From Amoebidium appalachense (Eukaryota; Protista; Ichthyosporea): a stretch of DNA of 21,959 bases. The notes under the pieces are model-generated. The model saw only the letters and a list, made by a program, of their open reading frames with translations, did not search any database and had not been told where the DNA came from. The stretch lies in NCBI GenBank assembly GCA_963693365.1, contig CAVNZM010000063.1, positions 1 to 21,959 on the forward strand, written 5' to 3'. A program made the translations under genes and the position numbers. Positions 690-21,959 of the stretch are shown here, piece by piece. Each line of letters begins with the position of its first letter. Position 1 is the first letter of the stretch.

Positions 690-1140
690 CACCAATCAAA
701 TCGCGCGCATCCCGACAGTTTGAATATTGAAAGAGTCGGATGGCGTCATTCCAGTGATTTGATTGGATAGTCGGTGAGTGGCATCACACTTACCAATCAT
801 AGCGCTATTATATAAATATGAGATTAAAGGGCTTTTTATTACTTTCTACCTTATCGATGACATCATCGGTGCGCTCTGATGACTATCTATATTGAAGACA
901 TAGTCATATTTATCATCATATATATATGTATATATATATAAACATATGGACTTTTTTTAAATATAAACATTAGTATGGATGTAAAAGTACACTATGTATG
1001 CCGATGTTATACTATGTAGAGACAGGTACATGTATATATATATATATATATGTGTGTGTAGACAAACAATCGTTAGTGCAGCCAATGGGACTGCGGGGTT
1101 CGTGTCAAACCTTTGATGATCGATATAATATGGACCATCA
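690..1140. promoter_or_regulatory. CCAAT/TATA-rich intergenic promoter region
   Basis: CCAAT/ATTGG at ~692, ~762, ~793 and ~1082; TATA-like TATAAAT at ~811; lies upstream of the 1187 ORF. Confidence 0.4.
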
Positions 1141-1186: not shown

Positions 1187-3054
1187 ATGCTGTACTGCAC
1201 GATGACATCTCTCCTCCATTTCATCAGAAGTAATGGAAAATTGTTTGAAGTACGAAAAAGAAATGGAGAATTCGACGTCGTCGACTGCTTTACCGTATCT
1301 TATAACGGAACGCGCAGCACGGCAACAAAGGCCCGGAAATTGGTGCTGGAGCGGAATCGTGCTCTGTTTGAAAAAGAAACCACGGTCTCGGGTGCACGTG
1401 GCTCCCACTATTATTTTGCCCCTGCGGACACAATCAGCCAAATGTTAATGGCCACCGAGAGCGCCACATCCGCGGAGTTTTTAGAGGCAGACGGCGAGCG
1501 CTTCTTCCGCGCGATAGGCGCCTCTCAGACCCAAGTGGACCAAGTAGTTCAAATGCGCGAAAGAATCGCTCGACGCCGCCCACCCGGCCACCCTTGCGCT
1601 ATCTCGCGGACGGTTATGACGGCAGAGGACAGCGAGCAGGATGTGCCCACACATGATGTCTCTGCACACAACGCGAGTGCGTCGACAGCGGGTAAACAGA
1701 ACCCACTCTTGTTGCCACCCCCCCTGCCTAACTACGAGCAGGATGTACACCACGGTGAGCCTGGCGGCGAGCACAACTACCACTCCATACTGCACGTAGC
1801 GGCGCAGCAGGCAGAAGCGACTGCACTCGCCGCGAAAGTAGCGGGTTTTCAACACGAGGAGTTTAAATTAAAACTCCAACTTGAGCACGACGAGCGCGAG
1901 ATGAAGCGTCGCCACGACGAGAGGATGATGGAACTCCGTATACAAAATACACGCCTCGAGATAGAACTGAGGAGGATGGGAACAAACGAACAGAGGGAAC
2001 AGGAGACGGTGATGGATGGCGAGAGGGGGCATGTGGCGGATATCGTGGATGTGGCGGAGGTCGTGGACGGGGCACACGGGGATGGAGGGACGGGGGCAGA
2101 CGGGGAAATGGTTGAGGCGGACGGGGACAGGGGATGGAGGGACGGGGGCAGACGGGGAAATGGTCGAGGCGGACGGGGCACACGGGGATGGAGGGACGGG
2201 GGCAGACGGGGAAATGGTCGAGGCGGACGGGGGCGGGGAGACCCAAATGCCTGAGGGACACGGGGAGGATCATCCGTTGTGTAACGACTGCGATAACGAG
2301 GAGATGGGTGTAAAGGAGACGGAACACGAACAGGAGAGCACAGTGACAGAGGAACGGCGTGCCGCGCAAGAGGATAAACTGAAACGGCTACAAGATATTA
2401 TCAGCAGTGCCCGAGGGTTCGAGCGGGTCTACCGCGATGAAATTTATGACAACCCCGTCTACGACGAGCGCGGCGTCAACCGCATCCTTGTATTTTATCA
2501 GCAGACACTGGAGAGCCTCATCCTACAGGTCGACGGCGTGCGGGATAGCACGGACACGGATACCGTCCGCGCCAAAGGAAAACGGGTTGTCGACGTGATC
2601 CTGGGGCTTCTCGCCAAGGCCGACGCGCAGCACACAGCACGCCAAAAGCGCCCTGCTTCGGACACCCGCCCCGCCGACACCAGACGTGCTAAGCGCACCA
2701 AGAGGACGCCCACTCACAGGGAGCGGCTAGTTAGCAGATTCTTCGAGCCGGCTCAAGGAATCGGCCCCCTGTGGTGCGGTCTATCTTCTTCGTCACCTCA
2801 GGGACCTGTTCCACAAGGAGGCTAGCAGTGAGAGCAGGACTTTCGCACGAGCGCCTCTGTCTACGGGTGAAGTAGCTAGGTTTTTGGGCAAGCAGGTATC
2901 TGTGTATTTTTGTACTATAGACAGGATGGAGGTGTTGCGTGATGAAAAAGGGGAAGTTTATGCCGTGAGACTCCCTAAGAACTGTTTAGGAAAGCCCGGC
3001 TATCCGCGCCATAAGGCAAGAGGGTACTTTCTCGGGAATCTGGTGTGTGCTTGA
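1187..3054 (+). CDS. Bro-N/KilA-like N-terminal domain + coiled coil + acidic repeat + BAG-like domain + C-terminal helical region; one gene broken by two frameshifts
   Basis: N-terminus VRKRNGEFDVVDCF...SGARGSHYYFAPADTISQMLM...AEFL...FFRAIGASQTQVDQV resembles the Bro-like family of large eukaryotic DNA viruses. The frame shifts at a 2-nt-short repeat unit (2120-2171) into ORF 2016..2825, which contains LESLILQVDGV...VRAKGKRVVDVILGLLAKAD (BAG-like). A third frame is open 2731-3054 (GAVYLLRHLRDLFHKE...EVARFLGKQV...NLVCA*). Confidence 0.6.
2066..2225 (+). repeat. Coding tandem repeat, 3 units (54, 52, 54 bp; DGAHGDGGTGADGEMVEA)
   Basis: Units start at 2066, 2120 and 2172. The middle unit lacks 2 nt, which shifts the reading frame. 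Confidence 0.9.
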
Positions 3055-3188: not shown

Positions 3189-3612
3189 CCCCCCCTCCCC
3201 CCCCCGCCCGTGTGTATGTGCTTTTGTGCCCCCATATCCCCCCCCTCCCCCCCCCCGCCCGTGTGTATGTTCTTTTGTGCCCCCATATCCCCCCCCCTCC
3301 CCCCCCCGCCCGTGTGTATGTTCTTTTGTGCCCCCATATCCCCCCCCCCCTCCCCCCCCGCCCGTGTGTATGTTCTTTTGTGCCCCCATATCCCCCCCTC
3401 CCCCCCCCCGCCCGTGTGTATGTTCTTTTGTGCCCCCATATCCCCCCCCCCCTCCCCCCCCCCGCCCGTGTGTATGTTCTTTTGTGCCCCCATATCCCCC
3501 CCCCCCCTCCCCCACACCCGTGTGTATGTTCTTTTGTGCCCCCATATCCCCCCCCCCCTCCCCCCGCCCGTGTGTATGTTCTTTTGTGCCCCCATATCCC
3601 CACCCCCCTCCC
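3189..3612. repeat. Minisatellite, 8 copies of ~52 bp
   Basis: Unit is CCCGTGTGTATGTTCTTTTGTGCCCCCATAT plus variable poly-C tracts. Confidence 0.95.
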
Positions 3613-6376
<2,764 letters not shown>

Positions 6377-6777
6377 CATACGGATGATAGCGCTATTATA
6401 TATTAGAATGGAAAAGTTGGCACTTTGGAGTTACATTGGGGTTGTGACAGGTGTGTGAGCACCGTAAAGCGGTGCTTCATTGGGTGTAGAAGGAATGCAG
6501 CATTCGATTGGAGAGGGGAATGGCATGCAGCATATGTGTAGAAAGTGCATGTAGCGCCGAACAAGCCGAACAAATCGACCCAATCATCTGGGACCATAGT
6601 ATTCTCTTGCCAATCGAATGCTGGATTCCATTCCTCTCCTCCCACAACCAATGAAGCGCCGGCAGCCCCCTATATAATCGCGGCCCGCGCTGAACAGCCA
6701 GTAACCTTCACTGTACACACAGAACACAGAACACACAACCCCCAAACCCCAAAGCGCCAACTCTTCCACCAGCGACC

Positions 6778-8453
6778 ATGGCTTCCACCTACGCCATCTA
6801 CGAGCGCCTCAACATTGCCGGTGCCAAAGAGGCCGGCTTCCCTCCCATCTCCCCCGAGCTCGAGCGCCTGCTGGGCACCGTGGGCGACGACGTGGTGGCC
6901 AAGGTGCTGCGTTTCCTCGACCCGTTTCTGCTGGACTGCAAGGAGACCATCTCCGGGCGCGCCGTGTATACGCTGCTTGGGTATGGTGACTACAGATTCT
7001 TCGTGAGAGCCATGTTTAAGGGGCAGATGGGGTCACCTGGCTTTGTCCCAGCAGGCAACTACCGTGTTATTGAGATGGAGGTATGTCTCGGAATTCTAAA
7101 GTTTTGAATGAATTCCCGGCACTATGCCGTGAATTCTCTGATTGGCTATGGGGGCATCATGTGACGTCATCACTTTTACGGATCAGAGCGGCAAAGTTTA
7201 GATTGGCTCTAAGGGCATCGTGTGATGTCATCACTTCTCAGCCTCAGGGCTGAAAAGTCATTTCGTCATTTTTGCGTCATCACTTTAGTCTCTACCATAA
7301 CTCAAAAGTCTTGACGTCAAAATTACGTCACCGGTGTCTTGCCAGTCTTGACGTCATCACTTATTTGTTTGGTTTAGAGCTGAAGTGTGCTAACAAACCA
7401 CGCCTTCATTCTACACAGAGCACGGGAGGTCGTCCGGGGCAGGATCATCTGCTCACTGCAAAGGGATTTCGTATGGCGTCTGCTTCCACAAACACCCTGC
7501 TGGGCCAGGCCATGCGTGTGTGGGCCTTTGATGTCGCCGAGGCCTTTGCCCGCCTGGCTGCCAACCGCAAGGACGAGGCCTATGACGCCTTTTGCGTCAC
7601 CCTTACCGCGGCCGAAGCACTTGCTGCCGCTGCCGCTACCGAGCGCGACCAGGCCATCAACGACAAGGGGGCCGCGGATGCCGCTGCAGACGCCGCCAAG
7701 GCCGCCAAGGAGGCCGCGGAGGCCGCCCAGGCCGAGGCGCTCGCCACCCTCGCTGCCGCTCTCGCCCGCGTCAAGCTCGAACCTCTGACCCTCCCGAACC
7801 GCATGCCCCTCACCACCGGCGGCACGTACACGGACAACCATGCGTTCAAGCGCCTGACGCGCGCCTTTGCGTATCTGTGCGTGGACACGCTGTACGGCGA
7901 CGGAGTGCGCTGCGCCAGCACGTACATGGGCATGATCATGGCCACCACGGGCGTGTGCTTTGTGTTCCAGTCGGGGGAGATTTCCAACATCATTGCCACC
8001 ACCGGGCTGCAGAAGGCCATGAAGGAGCGCATCCGGGTGTGGACCGGCGAGGAGCCCAAGTACTCGACCGACATGACCACGCAGCAGCTGTACACCTTTG
8101 TCTACAACTACACGCGCTGGTACGTGGAGTACTGCAAGGCGCCGGTGCTGCTGCGCCAGTCGACCATCAACAACGCGGACACGGGCGCTGCCGAGCACGA
8201 GGTGCACGTCGAGCTGGCGTCGTGGCTGGAGGCCATCAAGGACAAGTTCCCCGACATCGAGCCGCTGGAGCTCGGGCGCACCGTCAGCCTCAACGAGCCG
8301 CTGGTGGAGCGCGGCGAGCAGCTCAAGGGGCAGACCCAGCTGGACGTGTATGTGCAGCGCGGGCGGCTGGGGCGGAAGCGCAAGGTCGCCCGCCTGCAGA
8401 AGCCCGAGGGCCCCGTTGATGTTGTGGTGATTGCGGACAGTGATAGTGAGTGA
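6778..8453 (+). CDS. Two-exon gene (6778-7080, 7419-8453; 445 aa): AntA/AntB antirepressor- or MSV199-like DNA-binding domain, Ala-rich coiled coil, C-terminal NLS and SIM-like motif
   Basis: Kozak accATGg, with TATATAA at ~6671. Splicing gives ISGRAVYTLLGY...GFVPAGNYRVIEME|STGGRPGQDHLLTAKGFRMA...GQAMRVWAFDVAE, which follows the AntA pattern (SARELxxxL...GFxxxxDY...STGGRPxxDYxLT...GxxxRxYF). Strong GC3 bias in exon 2. Confidence 0.8.
7081..7418 (+). other. Spliceosomal intron (338 bp, phase 0)
   Basis: GAG|GTATGT donor, GCTAAC branch site at ~7389, pyrimidine tract and ACACAG| acceptor. It joins the two ORFs in frame and restores a domain. Confidence 0.85.
7138..7360. promoter_or_regulatory. 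Intronic cluster of CRE/ATF (TGACGTCA) and CCAAT motifs
   Basis: TGACGTCA at ~7162, ~7312 and ~7349, plus TGATGTCA, TTGCGTCA and TTACGTCA variants. Duplicated GATTGGCT...GGGCATC.TGTGA.GTCATCACTT module. Confidence 0.55.
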
Positions 8454-8732: not shown

Positions 8733-9750
<1,018 letters not shown>

Positions 9751-10317
9751 TATCTGCATGAAATTATGTGGGAACATGTATGTCTGTATATATGGGAAAT
9801 AAACAATAAAAATCATGATAACATAGTGGGTTCATATGTGAAGCGCGAATTTACTTGATATCGAACTTGTGCTCTTTGGCTTGAGACTTCAGTGAACATT
9901 CTATTCATATCTGATTGGTTAATTGTGATTGGGTGTCTGCGATTGGTCGAGTATCGATTTCAAAGAAGCCCTTGGTGATGAAATGTTTGATGGGTAAAAG
10001 GTTGTGTTAACTCGATTAAATCAAAGAAGGTTAAACCATCCGAGAAACTGTAGGTACTACGTCAATATTTTGATGTTGCATTTGTAAACATTGAGTGCAT
10101 TAGCGGCTCGGAAATATTTTGAGTCGTTTTGCACTACTCTGGGACTAAGATCACCAAAAAGCCAATCCAGCGTGGCTGCCAATAGAATCCACTCAAATAA
10201 CAAAGTCTGACATCCAATCATATGTCGCGGAATTGCCAAACAAGTATATAAGGTCACATCCACTCGGCCGATGCCATTGCATTCTACAAACACAGATACT
10301 CAAGCAACACAGGCAAA

Positions 10318-11047
10318 ATGTACACGACACATGGCGCTGCGCCTGTCTCATACAGCACCTTCACGTTTCCACCCACCCCACAACCCGACCTGGACATCAT
10401 ACAGAGTACCGACTTCATTCCGCTGACGTCCGACGATTTTGCTGCTTTTGACAACCAACTAGGTGACGGCTCCATGCTCCATGCGCCCACCCCGACGACG
10501 GCTAAGAGCCACGGCCAGCACCACGTCTTCGACTTCGACATGGTCTGCGGCGAGACAATCCCCCCCCTCTCCGGCGCGTGGTGTTCCCGCACGTCTGCAT
10601 CTGCAAGCGGTCTCCTCTCAAGCCCCCACGCTGCCACCCACCACAACCACGCCAGCAACAACATGGTTTGGCCGGCTCAGGTCTGTCGAGAACCAGGATT
10701 CCGATACGAGACAATGGAAGCGCTCGCGCGCTAACATCTCAATGACCAAAAAGCCACCTGGTGAAATCAAAGCCCTCGCCACTGCTGGTGATTGGAGGCG
10801 CCATCTTGCACCCCTGCCTGTTTCACAGATGTTGGGCGAGGCGCTCGACAGACTTAGCCCGTTGTGCCTTATACCGTTCATCAGCTGCACGCTCCCTTTT
10901 GCAGCTAGCAAAGAGCAGCTCTCCTACCTCGACGCTGGTAGCATCTGTGCGCTTCTCGGCTTCAGGGACATCGATGAGATACGCGACCGTCTCGATCAGG
11001 CCAAAATCGCAAACGCCCGTGATGTGCCAGGCACAGAAGCGGTAGGA

Positions 11048-11177: not shown

Positions 11178-12563
11178 GGCTTCCACACACACACACACGC
11201 ACACACGCACACACAAGGCTTCCACACACACACACACGCACACACGCACACACAAGGCTTCCACACACACACACACACAAGGCTTCCACACACACACACA
11301 CACACACACGCACACACAAGGCTTCCACACACACACACGCACACACGCACACACAAGGCTTCCACACACACACACACACAAGGCTTCCACACACACACAC
11401 ACACACACACGCACACACAAGGCTTCCACACACACACACACACAAGGCTTCCACACACACGCACACACAAGGCTTCCACACACACGCACACACAAGGCTT
11501 CCACACACACGCACACACAAGGCTTCCACACACACACACACACAAGGCTTCACACACACACACACAAGGCTTCCACACACACGCACACACAAGGCTTCCC
11601 ACACACACACACACACAAGGCTTCACACACGCACACACAAGGCTTCCACCGACACTTTATCAACACCCCTACTAAATGGTGGATCCGGGCACCATAGTGG
11701 TCGTGGCTACGGTGGCGTTTTGTGTGGGCATGTTCTTTCTCAGTGTCCTTGACTATCTCTTCCCCGTGTTCTCGGATCCGATTAAGGGGGACCCACCCCC
11801 GCCATACTCAATCCATGCTGATACTTGGTGATTCCTACAGGGTTCCCCGCACTACTACAAGGAGGGCAACTTCATGCTGGTCTCGCCCGCTGCGTTTCTT
11901 CACTTGACCACCCAGGTCTTGTACGAGTCCCCCCTGGCCCTCGATTTTCTGGGATGGTTTAACAGCGCGCGCAACAAGGAGCTGCACTTGCACGAAACCC
12001 GGCTCTATGAGAAGACCCGCGGCGCGCCCCCTTCCACCACCCCTCTGGATGCCACTCGCCACATTCACGCTACCTTTGTCGGTTTCCTGGTGGCCACACT
12101 CAGCTCGACATCCGTGCTTGACGTCCACCGGCTGGTGACCATCCTTGAAAAGGTCGCAAATGTGCAAGTCACTTCCCGCTTCAAGACCCGCAACATCTGC
12201 GCCCCGCACGCCGAGGCGCTGGTGTTCAAGGTGCTTGCCCAGCGCATCAATATAGACACGGGCGTTTCGATAGCGTCTGCGCTCGACATCAACACGTTGC
12301 ACCTCTACACGTTTCTCTCGCGCGCCCTTGAGGCTCTCGATGTTGACGTACCCCATCCACACGGCGTCCCAGCAGGCAGCACCTACAAGGACCCCCAGCT
12401 GCGCGACCTGAGGAAGCTGGGTCGCTCCCTCGAGAAGGACTTTGCCGGCATACGCCAGTTGCCCCTGGAGCCCAAGTCCTTCTTCTATGCCATGCCGGAG
12501 CGCCCGGTCACCCCGGCCGGACACGAAGTGTGTGCGTGCTTCAGGATGGATCGGAGTCTTTAG
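10318..12563 (+). CDS. Two-exon Bro-N/AntA/MSV199-like DNA-binding protein (exon 1 ends 11041, exon 2 11841-12563); 5' part either frameshifted near 10720-10735 or starting at ATG 10742 (340 aa)
   Basis: Spliced sequence YLDAGSICALLGFRDIDEIRDRL...PGTEA|GSPHYYKEGNFMLVSPAAFLHL...SPLALDFLGWFN parallels the 6778 gene. TATATAA at ~10246, aaaATG at 10318 and several upstream CCAAT boxes. Confidence 0.6.
11050..11649. repeat. Poly-C run followed by about 19 units of AAGGCTTCC(AC)n
   Basis: Seen directly. The last unit continues into unique sequence (AAGGCTTCCACCGAC). Confidence 0.9.
11676..11831 (+). CDS. Putative 51-aa single-pass membrane microprotein with PPxY motif, nested in the intron
   Basis: aaATGg start. 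MVDPGTIVVVATVAFCVGMFFLSVLDYLFPVFSDPIKGDPPPPYSIHADTW* has a ~20-residue hydrophobic stretch followed by PPPPY. Shorter than the ORFs listed in the track. Confidence 0.45.
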   Translation: MVDPGTIVVVATVAFCVGMFFLSVLDYLFPVFSDPIKGDPPPPYSIHADTW

Positions 12564-12852: not shown

Positions 12853-13332
12853 GGCCTCTTCTGTTGGGATTTCAGTCTTTATATACACCTACATAATCAT
12901 CAACAATAGCCGCTAAACATTGCGCGTTGTCTCGCGCGTGAGCTTTTGCAACCTTGTTTGTATTTGACAGGCCCGATGGCCCATGCCTACTTATCAAATG
13001 TGTACTAATCTTATCATGTCACGTGATATAAAGCTGACCAATCAGATCGTTTGGCATCTGATAATCACCCTTTGATCGCTGACAGAAAGGGGGGTTTATC
13101 GATCTGGTCTGATTAAATCGCATTCCGTGGCGCGGATTGCCCTGTATATTGTGTTTCAATAAACCCCACCTTTTTTGTCGCTTGCGGGAGATTTCCATGA
13201 CGCGATGGCATTTTTTAATTGAAGGTTGGGTGACAGGCAAACGGTGTCACATGGACATCAACTCTCACCTCGATCGGTTTCGTTTGTTCACCTTTCGATC
13301 ACATGACTTCTCTTCACCCACCCTTGCAAAAC

Positions 13333-14507
13333 ATGAACGCCCCACTCCCCCACCCACTCCCCCCTCCCCTCCCTTCACCCCCAAAGCCCGTTGAAGGGTG
13401 TGAATGCACTCGTTGCACAGACCTTCGCGTCTGTGACGGCTCTTCCGACGCGTGTGCCGTCTGCGGTTACCACAACACCCCGCATCTCAAGACGAAATCA
13501 AAACACTTCCCCGCCATCACCCATTTTGTTTGTGGCTGCGACCACTGCCTGACCCTTGCGGCAACAAGTGTTCCCCGTCTGTGTAGTTCGTGCTTCACCT
13601 CGCTGTCGACTCACTCTTCTCCCGTGCCCGGCCTCCCTGGCTGCTGCGACACATGCCGTAGCGGCACCCACTGTGCCTTCCGCATCGCCCGTCGCACCCA
13701 CAACTATATCAACACACAGCGTCGGCGGGCTTGGAATGCCGTCTACTCCCTGCTGACCACCATACCCGTCACGTGCACATGCATACCCGACATCCCAGAC
13801 CCCCTCCCCACCGCCCACCGCATGGCCCCGCACAACCCTGCATGTGCCATGTGGCACGTTGGCTTCCCCGCTCCCGTGCCCGAATGTGCCTCCCCCGTCT
13901 GTGCATGCACACACTACCGCAATGCGGAGGCCTTTCTCGCTCACATGTGTGCGGGTCGCCTGCGCCACCTTGTCACTGACATGTACACCCCCGCCCTCGA
14001 ATACTGCCCCTTGTGCAGCTGCCGCCGCCGCCCAGCTTCGCCCGGCACACCCCAGGCCTACGTGGCCGCCGACCTCCCCCTCCGCTTCCATTCCTGTCCT
14101 TGTCCACACTGCACGTCTTTGCACGCCCTGCCACCGTGCTCGTGTGTGCCGACTGCCACACACTCGTCCTGCAGCATCAGCATGGTGTGGACGGCTGCGC
14201 GAGGAGGCTTGTTGGCCGTAGACGACAGCTGCGACCGGGTTTGGCCCCCCGAAGACTTGTTCCTGCCCCACAAGCCCACACAAACACCCATTTTTCTCCC
14301 CAACCCCCACCATGCACATCTCTTCCACCAAGCCCATACCCATCCCCAAGCCCGCTCACACCGCCTGTTAAAGATACTGTATGCAAGAATTTAGAAGTTG
14401 AAGACCCCAACTCCCCCCAGGGTGAGTGGTTGTGGATGCTTTTCCCCTCTGGGTGGCAAAATGTGTGGGTGCCGGCCACCCCGGGCACCCCGCAAAATAA
14501 ATCGTGA
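13333..14507 (+). CDS. Cys/His-rich putative multi-zinc-binding protein; C-terminus probably continues through a frameshift near 14270
   Basis: aaacATGa at 13333. Many CxC/CxxC motifs (CECTRC, CAVC, CGCDHC, CSSC, CCDTC, CPLCSC, CPCPHC). The ORF ends at 14394, while another frame gives a plausible tail ...NLEVEDPNSPQGEWLWMLFPSGWQNVWVP to 14507. Confidence 0.55.
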
Positions 14508-16664: not shown

Positions 16665-16760
16665 GATTGGTCATCACGCTGATTGGTCAAAATTCCAAAC
16701 GTCTGATTGGTCGGTACGTCTGATTGGTCAACGCGTCTGATTGGTCAGCGCGCTATTGGT
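16665..16760. promoter_or_regulatory. Tandem CCAAT-box array (GATTGGTC x5 plus ATTGG)
   Basis: Repeats spaced about 16-24 bp apart, immediately left of the Copia insertion site. Probably the original promoter of the F-box gene and/or the divergent 16093 gene. Confidence 0.6.
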
Positions 16761-16777: not shown

Positions 16778-17692
16778 TGTTAAATTCTATAAGTATTTAG
16801 GAATGAAAGCAGAGACACAGTGGTGCAGTGTGAAAACACCACAGACACACACAACAACAAAACACGGAACGATCGGAGCAGTGTACACAACAGACATCAA
16901 TGTTTAGAAGACTGAATGAATTTATTCTGATCTTCGAATAAATACCTGAAATTCCTCTAAGTCCAATCCATACATGATTTCCGACCAGTCGGAAATCAGA
17001 TCCATCTCTAATAGAAACCAATCACTAAGAACCAATTGCTTTCAGAGAGATCCGGTACGCGGAGGCGTACACGATAGGACACAGACACTAGTTAAGATCA
17101 ACTGTGTCATCATCAAGGAAGTTCTAACCTATGACAACTGCAAAACTCAGACATATCACACTTAACCTTGATGATTGGTTAAAGCCCGGCAACACATGAA
17201 AACTAAAGTGAATTAATGAAGTCTAAACACACATGCTATTCTAAGTGTAGCCTAAGTGTGTTACCGTCAATGAACACGTATTAAGTAACACAAATCTACC
17301 TAACATATATTAGTAGAAAAGAAATACGATTATACACATGAAGACAAGGAGAGAAAGAAAAGAAAATAAGGAAGGAGAAAGAGGAAGGAAAAGAGGCACA
17401 GATCAACAAACAAGATAGTAATAGCATAACTATAACAGAGATATTTATGTACACACGAACATGTACACGTCTCTCCCTGAGTGGGTGGATCCGTGTACAC
17501 ACATATAAATATTCTAATCGATATTACAATACACGAAAAGCCGATACAACACGATTACAAGTATACAAGCATATCGGAGATCGATGCTACACTTTACATA
17601 ATAGGAGTGTGGCATTTACACTAAGCATATGAACTGAAACATAACACAAACTGAGAAGATCTTACCATATGTAAATACTACGTATTACAACA
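16778..17692 (-). repeat. 3' LTR (915 bp)
   Basis: Runs TGTTAAA...TACAACA on the + strand and is a direct repeat of ~18790-19568. Confidence 0.9.
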
Positions 17693-18073: not shown

Positions 18074-18420
18074 TTAAAGTGGGCAAACCCCACTTAAGGC
18101 AAAAAAAAAAAAAATACATATACAGAATCGTAGTAGTAGACGTTCCAACTGGGAAGCAGTGTAGAGGAAGCTGCTGTCCAGGGCCCCAGGTGTAGTAGAA
18201 GACCACCGATGATCACTGCACAAGGTCGGGCACACAGAGTCGATCACGGTGAGTGAATGGCTGGGACCCGGCAGTGACTTGGTAAGGATGTCAGCCAAGT
18301 TGTTGGCGACGAGTTGAGACAACATCCCCACTCAGGCTGGGGGGGAGGATAGGGGATGGGGGGTATCGAGGACGAAACGGTAGAAGGACAACGGGGGTCA
18401 CGGATTTGGATGCAGTGTGT
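18074..18420 (-). pseudogene. pol: Copia pol remnant (RNase H C-terminus)
   Basis: CIQIRDP... followed by LVANNLADILTKSLPGP, matching the Copia ADxLTK motif. Heavily frameshifted. Confidence 0.75.
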
Positions 18421-18789: not shown

Positions 18790-19568
18790 ACACAACAACA
18801 AAAAGAAGCGACAAAAAGACATCAATAGAGCGACGATAAATACTGAAATTCCTCTAAGTCCAATCCATACATGATCCACAAATAGATCATCTCTAAGAAC
18901 CAATCACTAAGAAAATTTTTCAGAGAGATCGGTACGCGGAGGCGTACACGATAGGACACAGACACTAGTTAAGATCAACTCGTGTCATCACAGAAGTTAA
19001 CCAGACAACTGCAAAGACCAGACATATCACACTTAACCTTGATGATTGGTTAAAGCCCGGCAACACATGAAAACTAAAGTGAATTAATGAAGTCTAAACA
19101 CACATGCTATTCTAAGTGTAGCCTAAGTGTGTTACCGTCCAATGAACACGTATTAAGTAACACAAATCTACCTAACATATATTAGTAGAAAAGAAATACG
19201 ATTATACACATGAAGACAAGGAGAGAAAGAAAAGAAAATAAGGAAGGAGAAAGAGGAAGGAAAAGAGAGCACAGATCAACAAACAAGATAGTAATAGCAT
19301 AACTATAACCAGAGATATTTATGTACACACGAACATGTACACGTCTCTCCCTGAGTGGGTGGATCCGTGTACACACATATAAATATTCTAATCGATATTA
19401 CAATACACGATTAAAGCCGATACAACACGATTACAAGTATACAAGCATATCGGAGATCGATGCTACACTTTACATAATAGGAGTGTGGCATTTACACTAA
19501 GCATATGAACTGAAACATAACACAAACTGAGAAGATCTTACCATATGTAAATACTACGTATTACAACA
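18790..19568 (-). repeat. 5' LTR (left boundary degraded)
   Basis: Near-identical to 17050-17692 over ~18930-19568 and increasingly deletion-ridden leftwards. No PBS recognisable. Confidence 0.85.
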
Positions 19569-19637
19569 GGGAGGGGTATACCACAGCTCAGCTTTCAAAC
19601 TTCACTCTCCAAACGAACTCATGGCGCGTTCATCACA

Positions 19638-21104
19638 ATGGGCGCCGATCAGTCCACCCTTTCTCCCAGCGCGCAACAGCTGGTCTTGGGCAACCACTAC
19701 CTGCTTCTGTACATCTGCTCCTTCCTGGATGCACGCTCACGTCGCAGCATTGCGCTCACCTGCCGAGCGCTTCGCCACGTACACGAGGCAGAGCTGGCGC
19801 GCCCGAACAGCCACATGCGCGTCGACCTATCCAAGGGTCCGAAGTCAATCGAGTTTGCCACGCGCGTCCGTGCCACCCACGTCGTTGCCACCACTGCTGA
19901 CTACAAGCGCCTTGCCGAGCTTCCGCCCATGCGGTTCGTTCTCCACATGGTTCTTGATGAGTACCGGGACCTGGCCAACCACCATGCAAAGGCTGCCCAT
20001 AACCACCGCTACACCAGCACGGAGCCCATCTACCCAGACCTGTTTCCCAACCTCAAGGTCGCAGAGGTCAACTCCTTCAAGTGCCACACCCCCCTTGTCG
20101 CCCCCTTCGCGTTGCTGGGCCGCGCTATCCTGAACCTGACGAGTCTGACCCTTGCCTTCTCTGCCACTCCCAGGCCCACACCTGGTGTAGTCATGGATCT
20201 CACTGCGCTCGAAAACCTGGCCCATCTGCACGTCCACCTGTGCACGCGTGTGAACCCCTCTAACATCTACGCCATCCCCAGCACGGCGCTGCATGTGCCT
20301 GCGGGCCTTGTGAAACTGCATCTGGACTACCGCTTCCGCTCCATGTGCGGCCACCAGTACGGCTACGGCAGCGGCGGCTCCGCTCCCGGTATCCACAACA
20401 TCCACAACATCGAGTCCTGCGTCAACATGCGCAATGTGCACGTGTGCGTCTTTGGCATGGTGGTGTTCGACACCATCAATCGCGCCCACCGTGTCGAGCT
20501 GCTGTGCTCACAGGCCCGCGGCACGCTGCGCGGTTGCACCAGCGTCCAGATCGGCAAGGAGGTGCGCGACATCGAGATCACCACCACCGGGGACAGCGCC
20601 AGTGACTACCCAGGCAACCGGCTGCTTGTGGCCGGCGCCCGCGAGTTCGAGTGCTTCCATCCTGCCCACAACTGGGCGCTGCAGGACGTCCATGTGCTGG
20701 AGCTCATGCACGTGCCCCACAGCCCGCGCGCGCTGGTGGCCATCGCGCAGGCCGTCAACCTGCGCTCGCTGACCGTCACGGCGCCCATGTTCAGCGACAA
20801 GGAGCTCGTCTACCACATGCCCCCGACCATCGAGATGGTCAACTTCAGGCACGTGCGCCTGGTCGTGCTCGCCGACCCCAGCGGGCTCATCCGCCCGCTT
20901 GTGTTTTCCAGCGACTGCGACCTGGTCCTCTACAACCACTGGCTCCTCCGTGCGGCCGGGTTCCTGATGGACTCGAAGTGGGACCGGTTCATGACACGGC
21001 TGCTGCACATCACGCAGTGCGACATGCCGTGGGCGCTCGGGCGGAAGCTGCAGTACATGGGCGACAAGTCGTACAGGCACCTGCCGTTCCCCGAGGGGGT
21101 GTAG
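19638..21104 (+). CDS. F-box protein with LRR-like C-terminal repeats (488 aa, intronless)
   Basis: acaATGg start. LVLGNHYLLLYICSFLDARSRRSIALTCRALRHV is F-box-like. FPNLKVAEV, LNLTSLTL, LENLAHLHV, PAGLVKLHL and VNLRSLTV are LRR-like. Strong GC3 bias. Confidence 0.8.
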   Translation: MGADQSTLSPSAQQLVLGNHYLLLYICSFLDARSRRSIALTCRALRHVHEAELARPNSHMRVDLSKGPKSIEFATRVRATHVVATTADYKRLAELPPMRFVLHMVLDEYRDLANHHAKAAHNHRYTSTEPIYPDLFPNLKVAEVNSFKCHTPLVAPFALLGRAILNLTSLTLAFSATPRPTPGVVMDLTALENLAHLHVHLCTRVNPSNIYAIPSTALHVPAGLVKLHLDYRFRSMCGHQYGYGSGGSAPGIHNIHNIESCVNMRNVHVCVFGMVVFDTINRAHRVELLCSQARGTLRGCTSVQIGKEVRDIEITTTGDSASDYPGNRLLVAGAREFECFHPAHNWALQDVHVLELMHVPHSPRALVAIAQAVNLRSLTVTAPMFSDKELVYHMPPTIEMVNFRHVRLVVLADPSGLIRPLVFSSDCDLVLYNHWLLRAAGFLMDSKWDRFMTRLLHITQCDMPWALGRKLQYMGDKSYRHLPFPEGV

Positions 21105-21120: not shown

Positions 21121-21959
21121 TTAGAGCCCTAGACACTTGGTCATGTGATTGTAGTCGAATCTGTGGGCCTTGATGGTCACCTTGTTTGCACTTAGTTTCT
21201 TTGTACTTACTGGTTTCATCATGAATATCTGCCGTAGAACTTTGCCAAATACACATAGGTTCATGTGAACCTCCATGTCTGACCCTTGTTGTCTCACCCA
21301 TTCGGAATACAGTGCATAGAGAGATGATGTTTTTACGGGGGATCCCGGGGGGAACTTGTGCCTGTTGTTTTCGTCTTTCAAAAATTCAATAAAAAACTGC
21401 TTGACCAGCTCGTATCCCTTGCTGTGTCGCAGATTGGAGTCTTTTGTCCACGGCCTTGTTATCCACTCGCCTATCCTATCGTCAATAAGTATGCGCACCC
21501 CCCGTGACTTCCCGTCGTCCAAGGCAGACTTGTATGCACGCCACGGGCAGTGGCCGTACAAATAAAGTGTTGGGCGGTGGTTGGGGTATGTGCTCTGTCT
21601 TGCAAGGATTGTTTGTAGGCCGTCTACGAATCGGGTGATGTGGACCACCAGTATCACGTCGGTTCCCGTCAGCACACAGTCCTCCCCGAGCATTGTGGTT
21701 TCCGGTTGGTATAAAAGGCGTGTTACGATTTCAGACCCATCACTTCCAGTCATCTTAGAGTAGTGAACAAAAATATTGGAGGGTGGGCCTTTTATAGGTT
21801 TTGGGTGGGTGGTGTAGGTGGAGGTGCTTGCAAGCACCTGTCGTTCCCCGAGGAGTGTGGGGGGGGGAGGGGCTGGGGGGGGTGCATTTTTATTATCTAG
21901 CATATACATAATGGTCGACTTCAACAACATGTCTGTACCATTGGTACCAGAGCGCACTC
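21121..21959 (-). CDS. 5'-partial protein: degenerate PD-(D/E)XK-like domain + D5-C/RFX-like winged helix
   Basis: LGEDCVLTGTDVILV...GLQTILARQSTYPNHRPTLYLYG resembles the GxIDxLTxxExIEVK...GQxLxY...YPxHxxxxxLFG family without the catalytic residues. VKTSSLYALYSEWVRQQG...MNLCVFGKVLRQIF resembles the winged helix of D5 primase C-termini or RFX. Confidence 0.6.
   Translation of the reverse strand, partial: VRSGTNGTDMLLKSTIMYMLDNKNAPPPAPPPPTLLGERQVLASTSTYTTHPKPIKGPPSNIFVHYSKMTGSDGSEIVTRLLYQPETTMLGEDCVLTGTDVILVVHITRFVDGLQTILARQSTYPNHRPTLYLYGHCPWRAYKSALDDGKSRGVRILIDDRIGEWITRPWTKDSNLRHSKGYELVKQFFIEFLKDENNRHKFPPGSPVKTSSLYALYSEWVRQQGSDMEVHMNLCVFGKVLRQIFMMKPVSTKKLSANKVTIKAHRFDYNHMTKCLGL

What the first reader, a model, noticed from the sequence alone, without database searches (positions are those of the whole stretch)
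6778..8453. Phage antirepressor (AntA)-like domain split by a spliceosomal intron
Removing 7081-7418 (GTATGT...GCTAAC...CAG) fuses two unrelated-looking ORFs in frame. It rebuilds the motif NYRVIEME|STGGRPGQDHLLT, which resembles the STGGRP..DY.LT signature of AntA/AntB proteins. A prokaryote/virus-type DNA-binding domain carrying a canonical intron implies nuclear expression and either domestication or an intron-bearing virus.
Basis: partly seen in the sequence, partly recalled or inferred. Interest (0 to 1): 0.8.

Follow-up and report, generated by a model that had tools for sequence, protein, structure and literature searches.

The report
Intron-split phage-type DNA-binding gene family
A repeated gene in a eukaryote-like genome is cut by what is very likely a real spliceosomal intron, and the joined protein begins with a distant relative of phage antirepressor domains, so it is likely a virus-derived DNA-binding regulator adapted to the nucleus, of a kind known in outline but from a family I could not find described.

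Summary
Removing 7081-7418 (GTATGT…TGCTAAC…CAG, phase 0) joins 101 and 344 codons into 445 aa. No spliced read was obtained, but comparative evidence supports the intron:
- An uninterrupted homologue, P0007, aligns straight across the junction.
- A Daphnia-labelled homologue has both halves, with intron-like sequence between them.
- Diverged copies lose similarity after GTATG and regain it at CAG.
- The junction ranks first of 88 possible splices.

The AntA link is probable but remote. The family profile matches AntA at 95% (HHalign, E 6e-8), collinear over both exons. There is no Pfam AntA or MSV199 hit, and the STGGRP motif is not conserved in P0007. AntA itself models as a KilA-N/Mbp1-like fold.

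The family is tiny: 7 clusters in 1.84 billion proteins, none in IMG/VR. It is multicopy here and has likely nuclear-import and SUMO-binding tails. The intron carries TGACGTCA/CCAAT repeats that the homologue appears to share. The best reading is an accessory regulator of an integrated virus-like or mobile element. Host and element type are unresolved.

The parts
6470..6661 (.). Nested inverted repeat (about 190 bp fold-back, with CCAAT boxes) just upstream of the gene; possible promoter/operator or small inserted element
   Evidence: Arms 6470-6494/6637-6661 (84%) and 6492-6511/6610-6629 (95%); CCAAT/GATTGG at 6506, 6580, 6610. Function inferred
6671..6677 (+). TATA-box-like TATATAA, 107 bp before the ATG
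   Evidence: consensus recalled
6778..7080 (+). Exon 1 (101 aa): about 54-aa helical N-terminal extension of no known family, then the first half of the AntA-like domain (from 6940)
7081..7418 (+). GT-AG intron, phase 0, branch site TGCTAAC 7388-7394; holds 3 TGACGTCA palindromes, 2 GATTGG boxes and a 61-bp tandem unit, and folds back on itself
   Evidence: boundaries supported
7419..7547 (+). Exon 2, second half of the AntA-like domain (predicted wing strand and two helices)
   Evidence: Aligns to AntA positions 57-99; AntA secondary structure
7551..7778 (+). Ala-rich (43%) predicted helical linker, variable in length among copies
   Evidence: 42- and 114-nt skips (multiples of 3) in other copies; shorter in homologues
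7779..8372 (+). Conserved C-terminal domain of unknown fold and function; defines the family
   Evidence: 40-47% identity to P0001-P0003; 7 hits; model pLDDT 47 with no fold match
8373..8453 (+). Basic stretch RKRK (nuclear-localisation-like) and C-terminal V-V-V-I plus acidic/Ser tail (SUMO-interacting-motif-like); stop at 8451-8453
   Evidence: Sequence; basic stretch and hydrophobic tail recur in homologues. Motif definitions recalled, not tested
8746..9364 (-). Two 315-bp tandem copies holding a decayed piece of a paralogue: 68 bp like the intron's 5' part, then the 3' splice site and the start of exon 2, out of frame
   Evidence: (81%); acceptor region scores 58 vs a maximum of 39 in 2000 shuffles

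Best explanation
A 338-bp GT-AG segment that is very likely a spliced intron splits a 445-codon gene whose N-terminal domain is a remote relative of phage AntA and is predicted to bind DNA, and the gene is one of several diverged copies that likely belong to a virus-derived or mobile element integrated in a eukaryotic nuclear genome. Proposed working, step by step. (1) Host RNA polymerase II would transcribe it from the TATA/CCAAT region (inferred). (2) The host spliceosome would remove the intron. The cut falls in the loop between the two wing strands of the KilA-N/APSES-type fold, so neither unspliced ORF could form the domain (position shown by alignment to the AntA model; consequence inferred). 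(3) The basic tail would import the protein into the nucleus, where it would bind the element's own DNA and tune its transcription, possibly by contacting SUMO-marked host chromatin factors through the tail (inferred from recalled motifs). (4) The intron predates the copies and the split from the 47%-identical homologue, so it was probably carried by the mobile ancestor rather than gained during decay of this copy (inferred from comparison).
For: One gene: P0007 is unbroken across the junction, and P0001 has both halves. Shared intron: P0001's model has 115 extra residues at this place, compatible with TGACGTCA at 7 places (4 distinct) vs 0 in the other 408 aa. From residue 212 another frame of that model fits the exon-2 start at 25 of 48 positions, best of 948 offsets, matched by 1 of 300 shuffles. 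Copies in runs X1-X3 and X6 (one sample) leave the window sequence at 7085 or 7096 and rejoin at 7416. Substitutions favour third codon positions: 13 of 24 listed places in exon 1 and 13 of 20 in exon 2 (p 0.03, 0.004). AntA: exon 1 aligns to positions 14-55 and exon 2 to 57-99. Shuffling exon 1, which played no part in choosing the seed, matches the real score in only 3, 1, 15 and 9 of 1000 trials and 0 of 500. HHalign gives 94.7%, E 6e-8. All 9 IMG/VR matches to the window's GGRPxxDHLLT pattern are AntA loci already fetched. The AntA model (pLDDT 88.6) matches Mbp1 best (Z 7.3, rmsd 3.2, 80 aligned) and giant-virus antirepressor and MSV199 proteins. Setting: long intronless neighbours, with weak Pox_D5 (E 0.017) and F-box-like (E 0.003) hits; decayed paralogue pieces next door; a near-identical LTR pair.
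Against: No spliced contig or read. None of the 7 runs laid has a 7080^7419 joint, and the kind of X1-X6 is not on record. No Pfam, PHROG or NCBIfam hit supports AntA. The AntA seed was chosen because it matched exon 2 (E 0.3), so that half is not independent. P0007 alone barely matches AntA (0.8%). The window's own domain was not folded. No capsid, polymerase, packaging ATPase or integrase hit appears among the 12 ORFs scanned, and the D5 and F-box hits are under Pfam's cut-offs. No relative was found in IMG/VR or JGI metagenomes. The tree is uninformative (end branch 5.39). Some contigs show 1-nt gaps in exon 1, so some copies may be dead. Only 40 of 186 difference rows were shown.
Confidence: 0.5

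Rival explanations
1. Domesticated host gene family: a viral KilA-N-fold domain was captured long ago, gained an intron and nuclear signals, and expanded as a lineage-specific transcription-factor family, as fungal SBF/APSES did.
For: Old conserved intron, bias toward third-position changes, TATA/CCAAT upstream, NLS-like tail. No viral relatives found. Precedent in PMC4862756 (section 9 read).
Against: Several subfamilies at under 90 to 99% identity in one sample, plus decayed fragments. Intron-poor neighbours with a weak D5-like hit. A stretch 95% identical over 59 aa in records labelled as two different Daphnia species, on 183-kb and 35-kb contigs, fits a shared hitchhiker or mobile element better than a fast-evolving host orthologue (inference).
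Confidence: 0.25
2. The contig belongs to a free, nucleus-replicating, intron-bearing DNA virus (mirusvirus- or pandoravirus-like) co-sequenced with its host.
For: Such viruses carry GT-AG introns (PMC12768974 passages). AntA-fold proteins occur in giant viruses.
Against: Low gene density, long CA microsatellites, a 12-copy 220-bp array and a near-identical LTR pair. Many diverged copies in one sample. No viral-contig relatives.
Confidence: 0.1
3. The gene and intron are real, but the AntA likeness is a chance or convergent match of a short Gly-Gly-Arg-Pro loop.
For: No curated-profile hit. Seed chosen on that loop. P0007 lacks the motif and scores 0.8-10%. The MSV199-like profile alone gives nothing.
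Against: Collinear 83-column match across both exons at E 6e-8. Exon-1 shuffles rarely match. P0007 and P0005 each score about 8.7 bits on the combined profile, at the expected positions.
Confidence: 0.1
4. 7081-7418 is not spliced but is a small fold-back transposon that broke the gene.
For: Strong fold-back (z -5.24), internal inverted repeats, related pieces elsewhere in the window, and an uninterrupted homologue exists.
Against: Canonical donor, branch site and acceptor restore the frame exactly. Both exons stay open with GC3 about 0.8. Diverged copies keep the ends while the interior changes. The inverted repeats are internal, not at the ends. A transposon origin for a now-spliced intron stays possible.
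Confidence: 0.05

Closest known systems
Phage AntA/AntB antirepressor domain (Pfam PF08346), e.g. Ruminococcus phage NatCom_23091 Ant (XTK83510.1)
   Same: Collinear 83-85-column match over helix-helix-hairpin-helix; best pairwise identity 30% over 90 columns; N-terminal position followed by a helical linker.
   Different: No Pfam hit; about 54 extra N-terminal residues; a novel C-terminal domain instead of KilAC/ANT; intron; NLS-like tail. Antirepressor activity is untested and has no obvious target in a eukaryote.
Giant-virus MSV199-like and 'phage antirepressor' proteins (PF10553)
   Same: Same predicted fold as AntA (profile-profile 94%); adding them to the AntA profile raises the score from 11.5 to 17.8 bits.
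   Different: A profile of 51 MSV199-like sequences alone does not detect the window domain (-0.5 bits; HHalign 0.2-0.5%). They came from one recalled motif, so other giant-virus subfamilies are not excluded.
Fungal SBF/APSES factors (Mbp1) and the Trichomonas KilA-N expansion
   Same: A viral KilA-N-type domain resident in a eukaryotic genome (PMC4862756, section 9 read); the AntA model's best solved match is Mbp1 (Z 7.3).
   Different: No Pfam KilA-N hit; AntA-type rather than KilA-N-type sequence; no evidence of a host role.
Endogenous giant-virus, adintovirus and Plavaka giant repeats of Amoebidium appalachense
   Same: Repeated, intron-poor gene clusters with secondary transposon insertions in a repeat-rich genome, with rare intron-bearing genes (KDM4-like) inside them (PMC11244446, section 7 and passages).
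   Different: No hallmark gene seen in this window; host not established; the passages and two supplementary text files searched do not mention AntA, KilA or MSV199.
Intron-rich mirusviruses, pandoraviruses and introner-bearing viral elements
   Same: GT-AG introns in genes of viral type (PMC12768974, PMC12166617 passages).
   Different: Mirusvirus intron lengths peak near 80 bp, against 338 bp here; there is no nested endonuclease here and only one intron per gene.

Membership tests
Major-spliceosome (GT-AG) intron | GT donor, branch site, YAG acceptor | tested here: met
   GTATGT, TGCTAAC 7388-7394, CAG 7416-7418
Major-spliceosome (GT-AG) intron | Removal restores a conserved reading frame | tested here: met
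   Continuous alignment to P0007; best of 88 candidate splices
Major-spliceosome (GT-AG) intron | Ends conserved, interior free to vary among copies | tested here: met
   Loose ends at 7085 and 7096 and a rejoin at 7416 in contigs of one sample
Major-spliceosome (GT-AG) intron | Spliced RNA observed | tested here: inconclusive
   No joint in 7 runs laid; none is on record as an RNA holder
AntA/AntB (PF08346) | Pfam gathering score of 27 bits or more | tested here: inconclusive
   No hit for either exon or for P0001, P0002, P0004-P0008, including unbroken P0007; the joined window product was not scanned against Pfam itself; home-made AntA profiles give 9.9-11.5 bits
AntA/AntB (PF08346) | Remote profile homology over the whole domain | tested here: met
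   HHalign 89.6-94.7%, E 2e-6 to 6e-8 per comparison
AntA/AntB (PF08346) | Prophage context and antirepressor activity | tested here: not met
   Eukaryote-type DNA with an intron, microsatellites and an LTR pair; activity not testable
MSV199 (PF10553) | Match to the MSV199 profile | tested here: not met
   No Pfam hit; a 51-sequence MSV199-like profile (7 of 7 sampled hit PF10553 at E<0.001) gives -0.5 bits
KilA-N/APSES fold | Three-dimensional fold like Mbp1 | tested here: inconclusive
   Shown only for the AntA model (Z 7.3, under the tool's caution line of 8); the window's domain was not folded
KilA-N/APSES fold | DNA binding | not testable with these tools
   Needs a binding assay
Endogenous giant virus / Polinton-like element | Hallmark genes (capsid, packaging ATPase, PolB, VLTF3, D5) | tested here: inconclusive
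   Only a sub-threshold Pox_D5/primase hit at the window's end (E 0.017 and 0.011) among 12 ORFs; the 22-kb window is cut there and no genome is held
Endogenous giant virus / Polinton-like element | Repeated, diverged, intron-poor copies with secondary insertions | tested here: met
   copy number shown for this gene only, not for its neighbours
Group I/II or other Rfam intron | Covariance-model match | tested here: not met
   0 matches in the window at gathering scores

The most novel reading that the evidence does not exclude
The gene marks an undescribed nucleus-dwelling DNA element of Daphnia-associated eukaryotes. Its AntA-derived regulator carries its own control panel inside the intron: an array of TGACGTCA and CCAAT sites, kept since before 47% protein divergence, that would recruit host bZIP and NF-Y factors or the protein itself. 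This would make a splice-dependent autoregulatory switch built on a phage-type antirepressor domain, an independent parallel to the origin of fungal APSES factors.
Probability: 0.15. Interest if true: 0.65.

Novelty: new variant of a known kind. Interest (0 to 1): 0.4.

Why it matters
KilA-N-fold domains moving from viruses into nuclear genomes, and introns in virus-type genes, are both known, so the class is not new. What this adds is a small unnamed family in which an AntA-type domain, rather than a KilA-N-type one, sits on a novel C-terminal domain. The intron hides it from gene callers: the NCBI model reads through it, and several database entries start in exon 2. The intron looks old and carries motifs apparently shared with a distant homologue, which argues against the view that introns in endogenous giant-virus genes only mark decay. 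The family is also a probe for an unidentified element or hitchhiker in two Daphnia assemblies.

Tried and rejected
Expression: no RNA holder listed. X7 had 0 contigs laid and X8 one 37-nt partial match; this is no evidence either way.

Library scans: Pfam, PHROGs and NCBIfam gave no meaningful hit for the exons or homologues. tblastn of exon 1 on phages gave noise. The word-indexed search with exon 1 found nothing, missing even P0001. ESM Atlas gave no usable hit for P0001 1-100 or P0002. No relatives in viral or metagenome contigs.

Structure: the C-terminal domain model was too poor to use (pLDDT 47). The AntA profile has no PDB sequence match, and Foldseek found none at E<=0.001.

Phylogeny: 30 of 137 AntA and 25 of 51 MSV199-like rows plus the window domain; long branch, no supported placement.

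Ideas tested and dropped:
- A second gene, 10742-11041^11841-12563, as a paralogue with an intron at the same place. No profile supports it.
- ORF 1187-2254 as Bro/KilA-like, seen by eye. Not supported by a 19-sequence profile or by a search.
- CGC/GCG depletion as a host signature. Absent.
- Alternative acceptors 7241, 7247 and 7442, and donor 7003. All score lower.
- Intron folding as proof of function. z is -5.2, and it still beats 60 of 60 shuffles that keep the motifs, but 2 of 8 other non-coding stretches reach -3.9 or lower.

Literature: ten paper searches showed no description of this family and no report on the origin of the Daphnia-labelled contigs; I read listings and abstract starts only, except for the papers named in the full report. 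Iyer 2002 is not held. bioRxiv supplements are closed, and supplementary figures of PMC11244446 were not visible; they may list domains enriched in the insertions. Earlier-scan look-ups by place and sequence were empty.

Full report
1. Observation. The coordinates are right. Exon 1 (6778-7080) encodes 101 aa and exon 2 (7419-8453) 344 aa. The 338-nt segment between them starts GTATGT, has TGCTAAC at 7388-7394, ends CAG, is GC-poor (0.44 vs 0.60 and 0.66) and has stops in all three frames. The window looks eukaryotic: CA microsatellites, a 220-bp tandem array, an LTR pair and sparse ORFs. No genome is held.

2. The two ORFs are one gene. A search with exon 2 found 2 proteins among 7995 candidates scored. 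P0001, an NCBI model labelled Daphnia sinensis on a 183-kb contig, matches exon 1 (48% over 96 aa) and exon 2 (47% over 238 aa). A full profile search of 1.84 billion representatives gave 7 hits. One of them, P0007 (310 aa, Logan contig), matches exon 1 (E 2e-10) and exon 2 (E 6e-16) and runs without a break through the junction (26% over 149 columns, E 5e-13). Whether its contig is DNA or RNA is unknown. P0002-P0005 begin inside the exon-2 region, as expected if gene callers stop at the intron, though contig ends could also explain it.

3. The intron. Among 88 open in-frame GT-AG excisions, this one ranks first by three measures, with small margins in two. Contigs of runs X1, X2, X3 and X6 (one sample, kind unknown) hold several diverged copies. 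They follow the window to 7085 or 7096, then differ, and one rejoins at 7416. One copy whose exon 1 is too diverged to align still shares 7056-7085 (record 2). Read by hand in frame, the loose ends keep conserved residues and show no stop. Listed substitutions favour third positions (13 of 24 in exon 1, 13 of 20 in exon 2, from the rows shown: 40 of 186 and all). Larger skips in exon 2 are multiples of three (42, 114, 3), but some contigs show 1-nt gaps in exon 1. P0001's model contains 115 residues at this position that look like read-through intron. They are compatible with TGACGTCA at 7 places (4 distinct) against 0 in the other 408 residues, and exon-2 similarity starts in another frame right after a possible CAG (25 of 48 positions; 1 of 300 shuffles). 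The intron is therefore probably shared, within about one codon. No junction-spanning contig was found in 7 runs laid, and no RNA holder is listed.

4. What the intron contains. It has three TGACGTCA palindromes (0 of 5000 resamples reach this), two GATTGG boxes (46 of 5000) and a 61-bp tandem unit. It folds strongly (-108 kcal/mol, z -5.2), but 2 of 8 other non-coding stretches fold comparably, and Rfam has no match. TGACGTCA and CCAAT are, from recall, ATF/CREB and NF-Y sites; function is untested. A decayed piece of a paralogue, with part of the intron, the acceptor and the start of exon 2, lies in two 315-bp copies at 8746-9364 on the minus strand.

5. The domain. No exon or homologue tested hits Pfam AntA, MSV199, KilA-N or Bro-N. 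The best phage match of the exon-2 start (E 0.3) is an annotated antirepressor Ant with Pfam AntA. Profiles from 57, 80 and 137 AntA relatives align exon 1 residues 56-101 to positions 14-55 and exon 2 to 57-99, at 9.9-11.5 bits. Adding 51 MSV199-like giant-virus sequences gives 17.8 bits (E 1.5e-7 for one comparison, about 0.004 scaled to Pfam's size). Shuffling exon 1, the half not used to pick the seed, rarely matches the real score (3, 1, 15, 9 of 1000; 0 of 500). HHalign rises from 75% for the single sequence to 94.7% (E 6e-8) for a 7-row family alignment. Against this: P0007 alone gives 0.8-10% and lacks STGGRP, and the MSV199-like profile alone gives nothing. An AlphaFold model of AntA (pLDDT 88.6) matches Mbp1 best among solved chains (Z 7.3, rmsd 3.2, 80 aligned), with Bqt4 and Dachshund close behind. 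It also matches giant-virus antirepressor, MSV199, KilA-N and Bro-N models. The junction maps between AntA strands 50-54 and 64-69, the wing hairpin. I put about 0.85 on true homology. The gene should be called AntA-like, not filed as AntA.

6. The rest of the protein: a helical N-terminal extension, an Ala-rich linker of variable length, a conserved C-terminal domain with no fold assignment, then RKRK and a V-V-V-I/acidic tail. The last two resemble a nuclear-localisation signal and a SUMO-interacting motif (recalled definitions) and recur in homologues.

7. Context and host. Neighbours are long single-exon ORFs with only sub-threshold hits: F-box-like at 19551-21104 and Pox_D5/primase at 21121-21957. 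No relative was found in IMG/VR or JGI contigs. The two named homologues are labelled D. sinensis and D. pulex and are 95% identical over 59 aa. For so variable a family, that suggests a shared hitchhiker or mobile element rather than host orthologues (inference). Ichthyosporeans associate with Daphnia (one reference title in PMC11286789), and one of them has hundreds of such insertions (PMC11244446). That is a lead only; the host is not established.

8. Comparison with print. Viral KilA-N domains in fungi, Trichomonas and insects: PMC4862756 (passages and section 9). Intron-poor endogenous viruses with rare intron-bearing genes: PMC11244446 (section 7, passages, two supplementary text files). 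Spliceosomal introns in mirusviruses and pandoraviruses, and the view that introns in endogenous nucleocytoviruses mark decay: PMC12768974 (passages). Introners in viral elements: PMC12166617 (passages). Bro-N in endogenous Polinton-like viruses: PMC12721341 (passages). P22-antirepressor/MSV199-like domains in phaeoviruses and their hosts: bioRxiv 10.64898/2026.08.29.747986 (passages). PMC13533422 and bioRxiv 10.1101/2025.04.19.649669 (passages) added nothing. An unchecked note from this scan reports a 62-base intron in a giant-virus KilA-N gene.

9. Verdict. The intron is very likely real (about 0.93), the AntA-like domain probable (about 0.85), and a repeated integrated virus-like or mobile element is the best home (about 0.5 overall). 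It is a new variant of a known kind; interest 0.4.

Noticed in passing
window 16946-17690 and 18843-19566: Near-identical direct repeats about 1.87 kb apart (LTR-like), with a short copia-type RNase H-like remnant on the minus strand near 18300 (motif recalled). The many 1-nt offsets between the copies suggest long-read indel errors or a very young insertion.
   Followed up: partly
window 10742-11041 and 11841-12563: Two ORFs that could be joined by a 799-nt phase-0 GT-AG segment filled with microsatellite (GTAGGA ... GCTGAT ... CTACAG). By eye it echoes the AntA-like layout, but no profile supports it.
   Followed up: yes
window 21121-21957 (-): ORF cut by the window's end, with weak Pox_D5/RFX winged-helix and phage primase hits (E 0.017, 0.045, 0.011); a possible D5-like primase-helicase C-terminus. 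Lower GC3 (0.57) than the focal gene.
   Followed up: partly
window 19551-21104 (+): Intronless 517-codon ORF with a weak F-box-like hit (E 0.003), starting right at the end of the right LTR-like repeat.
   Followed up: partly
window 3600-6380: Twelve tandem copies of a unit of about 220 bp with CA runs, each containing CAG/GTAAGT. It ends in TAGCGCTATTATA, which also occurs at 800; reminiscent of microsatellite-bearing Helitron-type ends (recalled, untested).
   Followed up: no
window 1187-2254 (+): ORF with a globular N-terminus and a coiled-coil-like middle. A Bro/KilA-like look by eye was not supported.
   Followed up: yes
window 13234-14394 (+): Cys/His-rich 386-codon ORF with no family hit.
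   Followed up: partly
window 692-793, 9605-9623, 9913-9946, 16665-16744: Further clusters of GATTGG/CCAATC and TGACGTCA outside the intron, so these motifs are common in this DNA's non-coding parts.
   Followed up: no
P0008 (EFX61890.1) vs P0001 (KAI9549629.1): Records labelled as two different Daphnia species share a 59-aa stretch at 95% identity, hinting at a common co-sequenced organism or mobile element in both assemblies.
   Followed up: partly
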